From Verrucomicrobiia bacterium (GTDB lineage Bacteria > Verrucomicrobiota > Verrucomicrobiia > Limisphaerales > UBA11358), in contig JASHVW010000447.1 in the NCBI GenBank assembly GCA_030044395.1, forward strand, positions 1 through 30,257: DNA of 30,257 nt, written 5' to 3'. Position 1 is the first letter of the stretch. Each line of letters starts with the position of its first letter. The notes beneath the pieces are model-generated. The model did no database searches and was not told where the DNA came from. It saw only the letters and a program-made list of their open reading frames with translations. Below are positions 4,432 to 8,304 of the stretch, in pieces. The position numbers were made by a program, and so were the translations under genes.

Positions 4432-7400
4432 TTAGCGCGCCTTCCGAATTTCCTCGATCCAGTCATTTCCCGGCCGCGCATACGGGCGGAAAATCTCTGT
4501 GTAGCCTTCGCGATCGTTATAATAAAGCGCGCGATGCATGCCCAGTGAACCGGCATCCGGCGAATCAATCAGGCTCGCCGAGTCGCTCGCGCTCATCTGG
4601 AACAGCACCCGCATCTCAAATTCCGCCAATGTCTTGCGTCCGAGAAAACGGTTCACGTTGTTGTAAGTATCGCACGTGGCGAGCACATGGAGGCCGAGGG
4701 CGGGGCCGTCGCTGATGAGGCTTTGCAAAATCGCCGCGGGGTTTGGCGCGCCGGAATCGCCGGAGGAAAAGCTGAATTCATCCTCCTGCCGCAGCTTTTT
4801 GAAATTTTGCAATCCATTGATGAACAGGAAAATTTCCGGCCCGGATGTTTCATCGGCGCGGCCTTTCAATTCATCAGCCAACGCGGCCATCATCCCGGCG
4901 AGATTGGCATTATTGACATGGATGACCTCGGACGAAACTGCCCGGGTGATTCGTTCGAGAAAATCGCGGTCGGACGATTCCCGCGGTGTCGCGTCAAAAA
5001 CATAAGCCTTCGCATTCTTGGACAATTGCGCCGCCAGCGAGACCAGCGCCACGGCTAAAATCGTCAACGACCGCTCGTCGCTTTGGCCGACAATCAACAA
5101 ATTGCTGCCACTCTGCCGCTGGAAAACCGCTTCGGTGGGCCCTTTGATGGAGTTAGGCGCGCCCAGCCAGACACGCGGTTGGACGGGCACCTTCGCCGGG
5201 ACCGTTTGCAGCAAGTCGCGCAGAAGCAGATTTTCCCGCACATCCGCCGGCGCGCTGCCCTCGAACACAAATGGCCCGGGAAATTTTCTGTCATCAGCGC
5301 GTTGGCGTACCATGGCGAGGTACTGGTCGCGGACATCTTCCGCCAGCCAGACGGCCTGAAACGGACTGTTGCCTTCCAGCGAGCCCGAGGCGTCATTGTA
5401 AATGCCTTCGCCGGGGCGCGAGAGCAATCGTGGCGCGGGATTGTCCTGGTCCATGATCAGATAGGCGTCGGCCTCGTTGCATTGGAGGGCGATGCGGATG
5501 ACCATTTGTCCAATCGTCGCGCGGGCCAGGGTGTAAGCGCCGCCCAGCGTTTGCGAGCCGAGCAGCACGTGAATGCCGAAGGCGCGCCCCTGGCGCACAA
5601 TGCGATCGAGCAAAACCGCCGCGCCTTGCGATACGCGGTCTTCCTCGGTGAAAAATTCCTGGAACTCGTCAATCAGGAGCAGGCAGCGCGGCATTGCTTC
5701 CTTGCCGCCCGCGCGTTTGTAGCCGGCCAGGTCCTGCGCGCCGAGCTGGCGGAATAAATCGCCGCGGCGGCGCAATTCATCGTCCACGCGCTGCAACACG
5801 CTCAATCCAAAGGCGCGGTCACTTTCGATCGCCACCACTTTTGCGTGGGGCAATCTGCGGCTCGCATAGCATTTGAACTCGACGCCCTTTTTGAAGTCCA
5901 CGAGATAAAACTCCACCTGTTCCGGGCTGCACCAGAGGGCAAGGTTGGTGATGATGATATGGAACAACGTGGATTTGCCCGAGCCGGTTTTGCCGGCAAT
6001 CAGGGCATGCTGCCGCGTGCCTTTGCCAATTTCCAGATACTGAAATTTCGTCGCCCCTGAGCGGCCGATCGGCACCCGAAGTTCCTCCGTGGTTTCCTGG
6101 CTCCAAATCCTGCCGTCCGCCGGCGCGACCTGCTGGAAGGGCACTTCCACGCGCGTGGAATTCCTGCTGCTCTCGCCGACGTCATGCAAGAATTTCGTGG
6201 CGAATTCGGGTGGAGGAGGAGAATCGAGGACGATTTGAGAGCCGGACTCGCGCCAGTTGGCCAGTTGAAAGTTCTTCTCGACGCGGATCAGGCGGACGGA
6301 ATTCTTCCGCATTTCATCCGGAACAAAGTCGGCCGGCGGGGCATTGCGCTGGTCCCAATGCGCGAGCAGATAAACGCCGCAACGCGCGCCGTTGGCGGCG
6401 ATGTTGCGCAACCGCCTGGCCGCCGTGTCGGTGAAATTTACCGGGAAGGACGCAATGACCAGAAAATGATATTTCTCGGCGATACTGCCGGCTTGCGCGT
6501 TGTAATCGGCGATGGTGGGGTATTCGTTGCGCAAATACATTTGGATGACCTTTTCCATGTGCTCGTTCAATTCGGCCAGTTTTTCCTCGAATTGCGCCGA
6601 TTGCGTCCAGATGCGGCTGTTGATGTAGCCTTCCTCGTAATCCGCCAGGTGCATCAGCGCGGCAAAATTTTGACCGAGGCCCACCGGGTCAAAAATGGTA
6701 AAACTGACTTTGCCGGGTGGCGTAGCCGACAGCAGGCGAAAGATGATATCGTTGATGGCGGCGACCGCCTCGGTCTCGCCACCCTTGTTCGTCTCAAAGA
6801 GAATTGAGCCTTCCAGGGGAAAGGCGAGCGTCAGCGGGACCGAAACCGCCGGCACGGGAAGCGCCAGCCGGTTGTCCCTGGGCAAAACTTCGGCGAATTT
6901 CGCCACATCCAATTCCAATCGCCCGAATTTCGCCGCGTTCTTGAATTCCCGCGGTGGCGTCCAGTTCTTCCACGCGCAGGAGTCCCATGCGGGAAATGTC
7001 TTTTCCGTTTCGGAATTCGCCGAGCGGATTTTTTCGTAGATGGGTTGGATGGTATTTTTCCAATCCGTTTCCAGCGCCAGCCAGCCGGACTGGAACTCCG
7101 CTTCCAGTCTGGCTATGTTGGCCGCCTCTGCCTCGGAGAATTTCCTGGCTTCTTCGTTGGATTGCTCACGAATGCGGCGGAGATTTTCGGCGCGTTCTTT
7201 TTCCAGTCGCTCAAAGTGGCCGCGAAACTTTTTCTCGTTCCTTTGGAGGATTTTGGCAGCGCGCACATCCACTTCCACCGCGCTTTGCCCGGTTCGCGCC
7301 CGGCGGGTCGCCTGGCGCCATTCGAGGTTGATGTTGCGGATGGCGGTGTCAAATTCGGTTTTAATCCGCGCCTGTTCCTGCTGGTAATGCAATTCAGCCT

Positions 7401-8304
7401 TTTGCGCCGCGATGTCGAGAAACCGCCCGGCCTGGGTCAGGTTGCCGGCAATCAGCGTGGCGGCGGATTTGGCGCTCCGTCCGCCGAGAACGTGGATGAT
7501 TAAAACCGCCACAAACGCCACCACCGCGGCAATGACCGCCGGCTGCGGAACGGCATCAGCAGCCTTGAATCCGAAATGCTGAAGGGCCGCAACCCCCGCC
7601 GCAAAACCAGGAAGCAGCAAGCCCCATAGCCAGACCGGAAGATACCTGAAAATCTGCGGCAACAAATTCTGTTTGAACTTCGCCAAATCATCGCCCAATC
7701 GTTTCTCCAAATCCTCAAATTGGGCGAACAATTTGTCTTCGTCCGGCGACAGGTCCGGTTCCGGCCACTGGCGTTTTGGCGAAAGCAGCCGGCGGAAACC
7801 TCCATAACCGCGGAAGGCTGCCCGAACGGAATGGGTGAGGACATTCAGGCGCCCGGCGGCGTCGCCTGATTTTTGCCGGAAGCTTTCCACGGTCGCTCCC
7901 GCTTCCGCCAATGCCTCGTCACGGTTTTGTTCGGCTTCCCGCGATTTGATCTGGACCCTTTCCTTTAACTGGCCGCTCCGCGTGCCGATTTGCTCGGTCA
8001 ACTCCCTGCGGACAGCGGCCTGGGCGCGCGAAATCCGGGCCTTGCGATGGTCGGCAGCAGCTTCAAGCCGGGCCTTGGCCTCAGCGAAGCGGGTATCTTC
8101 GTCCACTGCGTTCTCGGCCAGTTTTCTGCTTCGCTCGATGGCGGCGTCATCGGCCAATTTGGTTGCGGCGGCGGTCCGCGCATTAAAGTCGGCATTCAGC
8201 CTTTCTTCGCGCGCGGCGAAATCGCGGACGGCATTTTTCAATGCCTCCAATAGGGCGAGCGTCTGACTGACTCCGGATTGGCTGTTCACGATGTTTGCTG
8301 GCAA
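4432..8304 (-). CDS. Membrane-anchored FtsK/SpoIIIE-family ATPase, EssC/EccC-like (type VII secretion-like)
   Basis: 1290 aa. Walker A GKTGSGKS (5971-5994), YLVDFK, Walker B LLLIDEFQ and the FtsK-type [15 protein letters not shown] motif. Two hydrophobic segments at about 7440-7650 lie between long helical regions, and degenerate ATPase-like repeats flank the active one. The TTG start is uncertain. Confidence 0.85.

What the first reader, a model, noticed from the sequence alone, without database searches (positions are those of the whole stretch)
4432..8304. Unusual ATPase architecture: coiled coil - 2 TM - coiled coil - dead/active/dead ATPase cassette
Seen: about 200 aa of helical sequence before two TM segments, and another ~200 helical aa after them. 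Three RecA-like repeats follow. The first (about 6350-6840) has a ruined P-loop ([10 protein letters not shown]) but keeps IFDP and [10 protein letters not shown]. The second is intact ([13 protein letters not shown]). The third (about 4470-5170) has GQSDERSL at the Walker A position, INGLQ at Walker B and [10 protein letters not shown]. Established: EssC has N-terminal FHA domains and four ATPase-like domains, the last binding substrate signals in EccC; DNA-translocating FtsK has a C-terminal gamma domain. Neither FHA nor gamma is evident here. Inference: one repeat is missing and large coiled-coil stalks replace the FHA domains, suggesting a distinct ATPase subfamily.
Basis: partly seen in the sequence, partly recalled or inferred. 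Interest (0 to 1): 0.75.

Follow-up and report, generated by a model that had tools for sequence, protein, structure and literature searches.

The report
Three-module WXG100-linked membrane ATPase
This gene encodes a real, widely conserved membrane-anchored motor protein of Verrucomicrobia and Planctomycetes, related to type VII secretion ATPases but with one working ATPase module between two dead ones on a long helical stalk. The layout was already noted by comparative genomics in 2012 and 2024, and I found no experimental test of it.

Summary
The minus-strand gene at 4432-8289 encodes a 1285-aa protein. It has about 210 aa of helix, a two-helix membrane hairpin and about 160 aa of helical hairpin, then three FtsK/RecA-like domains. 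Only the middle domain keeps Walker A and B. There is no FHA or gamma domain.

It is not the cell-division FtsK; the genome has a separate one. It belongs to a distinct clade of WXG100-linked ATPases, all "dead-active-dead", that is separate from EccC/EssC. Soluble members sit on Caballeronia, Rhodococcus, Deinococcus and Helicobacter plasmids. Only the Verrucomicrobia/Planctomycetes branch carries the membrane hairpin.

The gene closes a conserved four-gene cassette: a 90-aa WXG100 protein, a roughly 170-aa helical protein, a roughly 70-aa protein, then the ATPase. Five carrier genomes each have one WXG100 gene and no other type VII parts.

Zhang et al. [quoted passage not shown] Bell et al. 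2024 described the coiled-coil, TM-less relatives. This scan has reported the same family in at least ten other genomes. I found no experimental test of its function; export of the small helical proteins is the likeliest role.

The parts
4432..8289 (-). Gene for the 1285-aa three-module FtsK/EssC-like ATPase. The start is probably GTG at 8289; TTG at 8304 is also possible. Stop codon at 4432-4434.
   Evidence: ORF list and translation; the collection holds this protein as 1285 aa, 100% identical; start region read
7642..8271 (-). N-terminal cytoplasmic helical region, aa 7-216 (helices 7-159 and 184-216)
   Evidence: AF2 model ma6e1b7f129de, pLDDT 88.6. Foldseek finds only generic long coiled coils such as Rad50, MukB and chemoreceptors, all at E >= 0.0019
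7474..7635 (-). Membrane hairpin: TM1 at aa 219-238, a loop of about 10 residues, TM2 at aa 249-272
   Evidence: Hydropathy peaks and AF2 helices. The hairpin is present in all Verrucomicrobia and Planctomycetes homologues checked and absent from the soluble relatives
6997..7473 (-). Post-membrane helical hairpin (stalk), aa 273-431. TM2 runs on as a helix to aa 334, then a turn, then a helix at 337-431.
   Evidence: BLASTP aligns query residues from 309 onward with the N-terminal region (from residue 155) of a TM-less 1061-aa relative (L014)
6163..6945 (-). Domain A: degenerate RecA/FtsK-like domain with no P-loop ([10 protein letters not shown] at the Walker A position). Parts of it (aa 521-640) are as conserved as the active domain.
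   Evidence: AF2. VIA alignment to the EccC5 stalk plus DUF, Z 15.5. No sequence match in the PDB at E <= 10. Conservation 0.85-0.88. Motif alignment
5287..6081 (-). Domain B: the only domain with intact motifs. Walker A GKTGSGKS at 5971-5994; Walker B LLLIDEFQ, with IDEFQ at 5659-5673.
   Evidence: Pfam PF01580, 104 bits. PDB phmmer aligns it to EccC D1. hhalign to D1, E 3e-32. VIA Z 31 to the FtsK motor
4438..5175 (-). Domain C: degenerate FtsK-like domain (GQSDERSL for Walker A, INGLQ for Walker B)
   Evidence: AF2. Its profile weakly matches EccC5 D2 (E 1.3e-3). hhalign gives D2 and D3 equally, E about 2e-6. The motifs are degenerate across the whole clade
8346..8558 (-). 70-aa helical protein with a W-R-D motif and a conserved C-terminal DCE. 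Its start overlaps the stop of the 166-aa gene (ATGA).
   Evidence: Its own family of 70-aa proteins in Verrucomicrobiota and Planctomycetota
8555..9055 (-). 166-aa helical protein with no Pfam family
   Evidence: Large Planctomycetota and Verrucomicrobiota families with no common Pfam domain. Conserved next to the ATPase
9136..9408 (-). 90-aa WXG100-family protein (W-Q-D in place of W-x-G)
   Evidence: Pfam PF06013, 38.9 bits against a cut-off of 27.3. It is the only WXG100 match in the genome

Best explanation
The gene encodes the motor of a stand-alone 'solo-WXG' type VII-like cassette, in the membrane-anchored form found in Verrucomicrobiota and Planctomycetota.

Shown here: both termini flank a two-helix membrane hairpin whose connecting loop is only about 10 residues. 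Because the ATPase modules must be cytoplasmic, the N-terminal helices are cytoplasmic too. TM2 continues into a long helical hairpin that leads into three stacked FtsK/RecA-like modules, and only the middle module keeps Walker A and B.

Inferred from what is established for FtsK/HerA-superfamily and EccC/EssC ATPases: the protein works as a hexamer at the inner membrane, so twelve TM helices would line or gate a channel. ATP hydrolysis in the single active module drives translocation. The two dead modules serve as a coupling or assembly scaffold (module A) and as a substrate- or partner-docking site (module C, by analogy with EccC D2/D3). The likely cargo or partners are the three co-transcribed helical proteins: the WXG100 protein, the 166-aa protein and the 70-aa protein. 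They would be moved into or across the cytoplasmic membrane.

No outer-membrane conduit is encoded in the cassette, so delivery to the periplasm or membrane is more likely than one-step secretion.
For: Fold and homology:
- Foldseek's best hit is the EccC D1-D3 structure 4nh0, E 2.7e-32.
- PDB sequence search gives EccC 1e-30 and YukB 9e-21, against FtsK 3e-9.
- hhalign of the active module to D1 gives probability 99.9%.

Motifs:
- Only module B keeps Walker A and B. Modules A and C are degenerate in every clade member examined.

Topology:
- Two TM segments with a short loop.

Gene context:
- The order WXG100, about 170 aa, about 70 aa, ATPase is kept while the flanking genes change. This holds in Verrucomicrobiota (L004, L006-L008, L010) and in Planctomycetota (L022, L023).
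- The 166-aa and 70-aa genes overlap by ATGA.
- The 90-aa protein passes Pfam's WXG100 threshold.
- It is the only WXG100 match in each of five carrier genomes, always next to the ATPase.

Not FtsK:
- A separate true FtsK exists in the same genome (229 bits) and in 41 of 41 sampled genomes of the phylum.

Prior readings:
- Published comparative-genomic reading as 'mobile versions of T7SS' (PMC3482391) and as a likely stand-alone secretion system (PMC11090510).
Against: - I found no experimental test: a 2023 review says such Gram-negative WXG100/FtsK pairs are not functionally confirmed (PMC10765036).
- No EccB, YukD/EsaB or YukC/EssB family was found in five carrier genomes, four of them at least 94% complete. 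No outer-membrane component is in the cassette.
- The nearest relatives outside the PVC branch have no TM segment at all (Caballeronia 927 aa, G160 1059 aa, Deinococcus 947 aa). They sit in CoCoNuT/vWA/kinase or toxin-immunity loci. So the ancestral cassette may act in the cytoplasm rather than as a membrane translocase.
- The hexamer, the pore and the cargo are inferences, not results.
- No RNA run was listed for this gene.
Confidence: 0.55

Rival explanations
1. It is a membrane-tethered conflict or defence module, not an exporter. As proposed for the TM-less relatives embedded in Type III-A CoCoNuT/TerY-P loci, the ATPase would act on the cytoplasmic side, for example by unfolding, assembling or releasing the small helical proteins or an effector in response to a signal. 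The membrane hairpin would only localise it.
For: The closest relatives outside the PVC branch are soluble. They lie between vWA, PP2C, Ser/Thr-kinase, CARF and AAA genes (Caballeronia), next to TerD genes (Rhodococcus), or around an HNH nuclease with a SMI1/KNR4 immunity gene (Helicobacter). In one Phycisphaerae locus the middle protein carries an Imm33-like domain. Bell et al. argue that the TM-less forms need a mechanism other than EssC's.
Against: The PVC cassette carries no toxin, nuclease, kinase or vWA gene in any of the seven loci read. It is highly conserved: 62-77% identity among the listed close homologues, which include Verrucomicrobiae and Limisphaerales, and about 40-45% identity to Planctomycetes. 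On the tree the Verrucomicrobiota cassette sequences form one starred clade while the Planctomycetota rows are left unresolved, which looks more like vertical descent than a mobile defence island. PADLOC gives only generic P-loop hits.
Confidence: 0.25
2. It has a lineage-specific housekeeping role in the PVC envelope or cell cycle, such as membrane remodelling or insertion of a structural helical protein, rather than secretion of effectors.
For: Conservation is unusually high for a secretion ATPase, including in the dead module A (0.85-0.88 identity per column). The gene is single-copy with a single WXG100 partner per genome. At least 577 loci were found among species-representative genomes, and the best 80 are labelled mostly as Verrucomicrobiota of several orders. 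No toxin or immunity genes are in the cassette.
Against: Distribution within the phylum is patchy: 12 of 301 sampled genomes match at E <= 1e-20, and that count includes the more distant paralogous types. So it is not universally required. There is no direct evidence for any such role.
Confidence: 0.12
3. It is a DNA translocase of the FtsK/TraB/TcpA kind, acting in chromosome segregation or conjugation.
For: The best single-domain structural match of module B is the FtsK motor (Z 31). The tree contains a split that puts FtsK and this clade on one side and EccC/EssC domains on the other (96/96, with a long-branch warning).
Against: There is no gamma (DNA-recognition) domain and no relaxase or conjugation genes in the conserved cassette. 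The gene is always linked to a WXG100 gene. FtsK forms its own clade (100/99), separate from this one. A true FtsK is present elsewhere in the genome. Sequence scores favour EccC/EssC D1 over FtsK.
Confidence: 0.05

Closest known systems
[quoted passage not shown] 2012, Biol Direct 7:18, Table 1 footnote 6; PMC3482391)
   Same: It has three FtsK/HerA-like modules with only the middle one active, and an adjacent solo WXG100 gene. It occurs in planctomycetes and verrucomicrobia, the lineages that footnote names.
   Different: The footnote, as read, calls them 'mobile versions of T7SS' and does not mention a membrane hairpin, helical stalk or the two extra small genes. Here the cassette is chromosomal and shows no mobility genes in the loci read. 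On the tree the Verrucomicrobiota cassette sequences form one clade, with the Planctomycetota rows unresolved. A TM hairpin sits inside about 400 aa of helix.
EssC-like FtsK ATPases of Type III-A CoCoNuT / TerY-P triad loci (Bell et al. 2024, eLife; PMC11090510)
   Same: It has the same dead-active-dead cassette. The Caballeronia plasmid protein scores 198, 388 and 172 bits on my domain A, B and C profiles. It also has an N-terminal coiled coil and WXG100-type partner genes, one of them without the W-x-G motif.
   Different: Those proteins have no TM helix. They are embedded between vWA genes together with a coiled-coil nuclease, kinase, phosphatase and CARF genes. The PVC form has a TM hairpin, an extra N-terminal stretch of about 210 aa of helix, and a plain four-gene cassette.
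EccC (T7SSa) and EssC/YukB (T7SSb) secretion ATPases
   Same: It has a TM hairpin followed by a stalk and stacked FtsK-like modules, a WXG100 partner gene, and an active module most like D1.
   Different: It has three RecA-like modules rather than four and one intact P-loop. There are no FHA domains. It is far below the NCBIfam equivalog cut-offs (115 against 509 bits; 87 against 778). EccB, YukD and YukC/EssB were not found. About 400 aa of extra helix flank the TM hairpin.
FtsK/SpoIIIE DNA translocases
   Same: It shares the Pfam PF01580 motor fold; structural Z is 31 on module B.
   Different: It has no gamma domain, a two-helix hairpin rather than a multi-span N-terminal membrane domain, two extra dead modules, a separate clade on the tree and a separate true FtsK in the genome.

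Membership tests
Solo-WXG-linked three-module 'middle-active' YueA/EssC-like ATPases (Zhang 2012; Bell 2024) | Three tandem HerA/FtsK-like domains | tested here: met
   The AF2 model has three alpha/beta domains. Foldseek aligns them over 953 columns to the three ATPase domains of EccC 4nh0.
Solo-WXG-linked three-module 'middle-active' YueA/EssC-like ATPases (Zhang 2012; Bell 2024) | Only the middle domain keeps Walker A and B | tested here: met
   The middle domain has GKTGSGKS and LLLIDEFQ. The first has no P-loop. The third has GQSDERS and INGLQ. The same pattern holds in relatives.
Solo-WXG-linked three-module 'middle-active' YueA/EssC-like ATPases (Zhang 2012; Bell 2024) | Adjacent WXG100-family gene, the only one in the genome | tested here: met
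   PF06013 scores 38.9 bits against a cut-off of 27.3. There is one match per genome in five carriers, always next to the ATPase.
Solo-WXG-linked three-module 'middle-active' YueA/EssC-like ATPases (Zhang 2012; Bell 2024) | Sequence kinship of the whole cassette with a described member (CoCoNuT-type locus) | tested here: met
   The Caballeronia plasmid ATPase, in a vWA/WXG100/CARF/PP2C/kinase locus, matches the domain A, B and C profiles at 198, 388 and 172 bits. It falls in the same clade on the tree, with support 92/86.
Solo-WXG-linked three-module 'middle-active' YueA/EssC-like ATPases (Zhang 2012; Bell 2024) | No transmembrane helix (a feature of the CoCoNuT-associated subgroup only) | tested here: not met
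   Two TM segments are present here and in all PVC-branch homologues checked. So this is the membrane-anchored branch, not the CoCoNuT subgroup.
Canonical T7SS ATPase EccC/EssC | Four RecA-like modules (DUF, D1, D2, D3) after the TM hairpin | tested here: not met
   Only three modules.
Canonical T7SS ATPase EccC/EssC | Reaches the NCBIfam equivalog cut-offs (TIGR03924, TIGR03925, TIGR03928) | tested here: not met
   115.5 against 509 bits, 90.8 against 347, and 87.4 against 778.
Canonical T7SS ATPase EccC/EssC | Accessory membrane components in the genome (EccB; YukC/EssB; YukD/EsaB) | tested here: not met
   PF05108, PF10140 and PF08817 were not found in five carrier genomes (four are 94-99% complete, the own genome 69%). 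The controls matched in C. glutamicum and/or B. subtilis. EccD, EccE, EssA and EsaA were not searched.
Canonical T7SS ATPase EccC/EssC | N-terminal FHA domains (EssC of T7SSb) | tested here: not met
   No Pfam FHA hit. The N-terminus is modelled as all-helical.
Canonical T7SS ATPase EccC/EssC | ATPase-dependent export of WXG100 substrates | not testable with these tools
   Needs an experiment. A review states that the Gram-negative pairs are functionally unconfirmed (PMC10765036).
FtsK cell-division DNA translocase | C-terminal gamma (KOPS-binding winged-helix) domain | tested here: not met
   No Pfam hit. The model ends with module C at aa 1284.
FtsK cell-division DNA translocase | Groups with FtsK on a tree of the motor domain | tested here: not met
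   Five FtsK sequences form their own clade (100/99), outside the 26-sequence clade that holds this protein. NF007615 scores 31 bits against a cut-off of 1566.

The most novel reading that the evidence does not exclude
The PVC branch is an ancient, vertically inherited, self-sufficient inner-membrane protein translocase. A single polypeptide, with one active ATPase, two scaffold modules and a hairpin that forms the pore as a hexamer, would export its three helical partners without any other type VII component. That would make it the simplest WXG100 export machine known. It would also be the first shown to work in bacteria with an outer membrane, and a possible model for how EccC/EssC systems began.
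Probability: 0.3. Interest if true: 0.6.

Novelty: new member of a known kind. Interest (0 to 1): 0.35.

Why it matters
Type VII secretion is treated as a Gram-positive and mycobacterial system. This family shows that a stripped-down relative is common in two large phyla of double-membraned environmental bacteria. It has one ATPase polypeptide with one working motor, plus WXG100-type partners. If it exports proteins, it would define the minimal parts list of a WXG100 translocase and help explain what the degenerate modules of EccC/EssC are for. If it does not, it would show that WXG100/FtsK pairs have a second, non-secretory use. Carriers labelled as cultured genera (Prosthecobacter, Luteolibacter, Limisphaera, Chthoniobacter) make the question testable. 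As a discovery it is not new: the type has been in the literature since 2012, and this scan has met it repeatedly.

Tried and rejected
- **Cell-division FtsK.** Rejected: a separate true FtsK is in the genome, and FtsK forms a separate clade on the tree.
- **Matching the first dead module to the EccC/EssC DUF domain by sequence.** Nothing found: a profile search of the PDB gave no hit at E <= 10, and hhalign to a three-sequence DUF alignment gave probability 0.6%. Only position and fold support the equivalence.
- **Assigning the last module to D2 or to D3.** Undecided: hhalign E 1.6e-6 against 2.2e-6.
- **A specific fold for the N-terminal 460 aa.** Only generic coiled coils, all at E >= 0.0019.
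- **Homology of the 166-aa protein to the larger 'middle' proteins of the Caballeronia, G160 and Helicobacter loci.** Not detected (hhalign probability <= 2.2%).
- **Homology between the three small proteins.** Not significant.
- **Known defence families.** PADLOC gave only generic P-loop matches to SspH, mad8 and HerA.
- **Promoter and terminator scan of 4200-9800.** At chance level.
- **RNA evidence.** No RNA run was listed. The DNA holders are peat and soil metagenomes.
- **Essentiality in Planctopirus limnophila.** The terms were not found in the supplementary files held.
- **Anantharaman et al. 2012.** Could not be read.
- **First tree with a single partial FtsK sequence.** Replaced by a tree with five FtsK sequences.
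- **One hhalign script timed out** and was rerun.
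Full report
**What is there.** The minus strand carries one long ORF at 4432-8304. The public protein collection holds this product as 1285 aa, which fits a GTG start at 8289. All residue numbers below use that form. Pfam recognises only one FtsK_SpoIIIE domain, at aa 740-919 of the TTG-start translation used in that call (104 bits). 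It finds no FHA and no gamma domain. NCBIfam's best models are EccCa, EccCb and EssC, all far below their cut-offs, with FtsK much lower still.

**Architecture.** A hydropathy scan finds two hydrophobic segments, at about aa 217-239 and 248-270, separated by about 10 residues.
- The AlphaFold2 model of aa 1-460 (50-sequence alignment, pLDDT 88.6) is entirely helical. It has helices at 7-159 and 184-216, TM1 at 219-238, TM2 from 249 running on as one helix to 334, a turn, and a helix at 337-431.
- Foldseek finds only generic long coiled coils for this part (Rad50, MukB, chemoreceptor bundles), none below E 0.0019.
- The model of aa 400-1285 (40 sequences, pLDDT 86, pTM 0.71) has three alpha/beta domains at about 449-709 (A), 737-1001 (B) and 1039-1284 (C).
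- Foldseek's best hit is the D1-D3 cytoplasmic part of T. curvata EccC (4nh0, E 2.7e-32, 953 columns). Next come the EccC/EssC D2-D3 structures, the FtsK motor and TcpA.

The observation of coiled coil, two TM helices, coiled coil, then dead/active/dead is therefore confirmed. Because the loop between the TM helices is short and the ATPase modules must be cytoplasmic, the N-terminal helices are cytoplasmic too (inference).

**Which EccC/EssC modules do A, B and C correspond to?**
- Module B aligns to D1 of EccC and YukB in the PDB sequence search.
- My profile of B scores D1 above D2 in three reference proteins taken from annotated plasmids: 100 against 65 bits, 83 against 53, and 84 against 48.
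- Profile-profile comparison of B gives D1 E 3e-32, D2 1e-21 and D3 3e-9.
- Module C matches D2 and D3 equally (E about 2e-6). Against the PDB its profile weakly matches EccC5 D2 (E 1.3e-3).
- Module A matches nothing by sequence. Together with the helix before it, it superposes on the stalk plus DUF of EccC5 (7b9f_C 101-417, Z 15.5).

I therefore favour DUF-like, D1-like, D2/3-like with one module fewer than EccC/EssC. Bell et al. number the modules D1-D2-D3 with 'D2' active. The count of three is firm; the identity of the missing module is not.

**Conservation.** Parts of module A (aa 521-640) are as conserved as the active module: 0.85-0.88 mean identity to the query across 36 homologues. 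The helical N-terminal half scores only 0.31-0.54. A dead module under that much constraint presumably has a binding or scaffold role (inference).

**Gene context.** Three small genes lie upstream on the same strand.
- A 90-aa protein (9136-9408) passes Pfam's WXG100 threshold with 38.9 bits against 27.3.
- A 166-aa helical protein (8555-9055) has no Pfam family.
- A 70-aa protein (8346-8558) has a start that overlaps the previous stop as ATGA.

The same order (WXG100, about 170 aa, about 70 aa, ATPase) recurs with different flanking genes. It is seen in other Verrucomicrobiota at 46-76% ATPase identity (L004, L006, L007, L008, L010). It is also seen in two loci taken to be planctomycete from the cluster names and flanking genes (L022, L023). 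In five carrier genomes (four are 94-99% complete, the own MAG 69%) there is exactly one WXG100 match, always this neighbour. No YukD, EccB or YukC/EssB family was found, while the controls matched in B. subtilis and/or C. glutamicum.

**Family and relatives.** The family is large.
- More than 7,600 clusters at 90% identity score E <= 0.001.
- The best 150 representatives at 50% identity all score above 830 bits, nearly all at about 1,300 aa.
- At least 577 loci were found among species-representative genomes. The best 80 are labelled mostly as Verrucomicrobiota of several orders, including Prosthecobacter, Luteolibacter, Limisphaera, Chthoniobacter and Victivallales.
- An even sample of the phylum gave 12 of 301 genomes at E <= 1e-20, so the distribution is patchy. 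The true FtsK was found in 41 of 41.

A tblastn search of plasmids with module B found closer relatives than any EccC or EssC. These are 'FtsK/SpoIIIE domain' proteins of Rhodococcus (42% identity), Caballeronia (44%), Helicobacter (35%) and Deinococcus (37%), against 27-33% for the top EccCa and EssC hits. My profiles of A, B and C all match these proteins in order, whereas EccC/EssC match only B. The P-loops of A and C are degenerate in all of them. None of these relatives has a TM hairpin; the hairpin is confined to the Verrucomicrobia/Planctomycetes branch.

Their gene contexts differ:
- **Caballeronia:** a vWA / WXG100 / 436-aa / 113-aa / 76-aa / ATPase / CARF / vWA / PP2C / kinase locus.
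- **Helicobacter:** an HNH nuclease and a SMI1/KNR4 immunity gene lie between the small genes and the ATPase.
- **Rhodococcus:** TerD genes lie nearby.

**Tree.** I built a maximum-likelihood tree of the active module from 37 sequences (LG+C20).
- Five FtsK sequences form their own clade (100/99).
- EccC D1 (99/99) and the D2 domains (96/92) form their own groups.
- All dead-active-dead proteins form a 26-sequence clade (92/86).
- Within that clade the PVC cassette proteins group together (97/93). A second Verrucomicrobiota type and the Rhodococcus protein are the next branches out.

The protein therefore does not cluster with cell-division FtsK. A split that puts FtsK and this clade opposite the EccC/EssC domains is supported (96/96), but the program flags it for long branches. 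HMM and profile scores point the other way, with EccC/EssC D1 above FtsK. I treat the clade as a third lineage whose exact position is open.

**Literature.**
- Zhang et al. [quoted passage not shown] - Bell et al. 2024 (PMC11090510) describe the CoCoNuT-linked homologues: three ATPase domains with only the central one active, an N-terminal coiled coil of more than 200 residues, no TM helices, and two WXG100 proteins of which one lacks the motif. They cite Anantharaman et al. [quoted passage not shown]
- A 2023 review notes that WXG100/FtsK pairs in Gram-negative species are not functionally confirmed (PMC10765036).
- The survey of new T7SS subtypes covers Gram-positive bacteria only (PMC11217815).

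The core of the finding is therefore already published as comparative genomics. As far as I could read, those papers do not describe the PVC-specific details. These are the TM hairpin set inside about 400 aa of helix, the fixed four-gene cassette, the strong conservation of the dead module A, and a descent pattern that looks vertical.

After reaching this reading I looked up earlier notes of this scan. The same family has been reported and followed up in at least ten other genomes with the same conclusion.

**Mechanism.** The likeliest mechanism (about 0.55) is a hexameric inner-membrane motor. Its single active module powers movement of the three co-encoded helical proteins into or across the cytoplasmic membrane, with modules A and C acting as scaffold and docking sites.
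- *Shown:* fold, motifs, topology and gene linkage.
- *Inferred:* the hexamer, the pore, the cargo and the direction of transport.

The main rival (about 0.25) is a cytoplasmic-face conflict or regulatory role, like that proposed for the TM-less relatives. Less likely are a PVC-specific housekeeping role (about 0.12) and DNA translocation (about 0.05).

**Verdict.** This is a new member of a known, experimentally untested kind.

Noticed in passing
window 2193-4427 (minus strand): A GH95 family glycoside hydrolase gene follows the ATPase gene directly. Its likely ATG, followed by a signal-like N-terminus, lies at about 4427, roughly 5 nt after the ATPase stop at 4432, so the two may be co-transcribed. 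The neighbour is different in every other locus read, so it is not part of the cassette.
   Followed up: partly
window ~9560-11625 (plus strand): A squalene-hopene cyclase gene lies divergently upstream of the WXG100 gene. The same arrangement is found in a homologous locus whose ATPase is 76% identical (L004 6878-8881).
   Followed up: no
L023 8710-9768: In a Phycisphaerae locus the middle gene of the cassette is 352 aa instead of about 170 aa and carries a Pfam Imm33-like domain. An Atlas cluster of 353-aa Planctomycetota proteins with Imm33-like resembles the 166-aa protein at score 0.82, which is a lead only.
   Followed up: no
L017 (G289:C21) and L012 (G169:C36): A second Verrucomicrobiota type of the ATPase (about 40% identity, 1288 aa, with a TM hairpin) has no WXG100-like small genes within about 8 kb upstream. 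A 2015-aa protein with a signal-like N-terminus and a lyase-like gene lie there instead. Its partner genes, if any, are elsewhere.
   Followed up: partly
L019 and L020 (genome G041): One Verrucomicrobiota genome carries two further, more distant systems, each with genes of about 90, about 93-113 and about 180 aa before an ATPase of about 1260 aa. One system has an extra 592-aa FtsK/SpoIIIE gene directly downstream, a split reminiscent of EccCa/EccCb.
   Followed up: partly
L026 4134-8536 (Helicobacter sp. plasmid): An 89-aa protein, an HNH endonuclease, a SMI1/KNR4 (SUKH) immunity gene and a 77-aa protein precede an 823-aa ATPase of the same clade. This is a toxin-immunity version of the cassette on a plasmid of an epsilonproteobacterium.
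   Followed up: partly
window 8170-8289 (aa 1-40 of the ATPase): The first 40 residues are more conserved (0.54) than the rest of the N-terminal helical half (0.31-0.53). hhalign puts the N-terminus of the 166-aa protein (aa 7-41) in register with that of the WXG100 protein (aa 5-39), but without significance (E 0.066).
   Followed up: partly
L077, L091, L098 (genome contigs): Contigs titled 'uncultured Bifidobacterium sp.', 'Klebsiella sp.' and 'Bifidobacteriaceae' carry this gene at 59-74% identity to the verrucomicrobial query. The bins are probably mislabelled rather than showing gene transfer.
   Followed up: no
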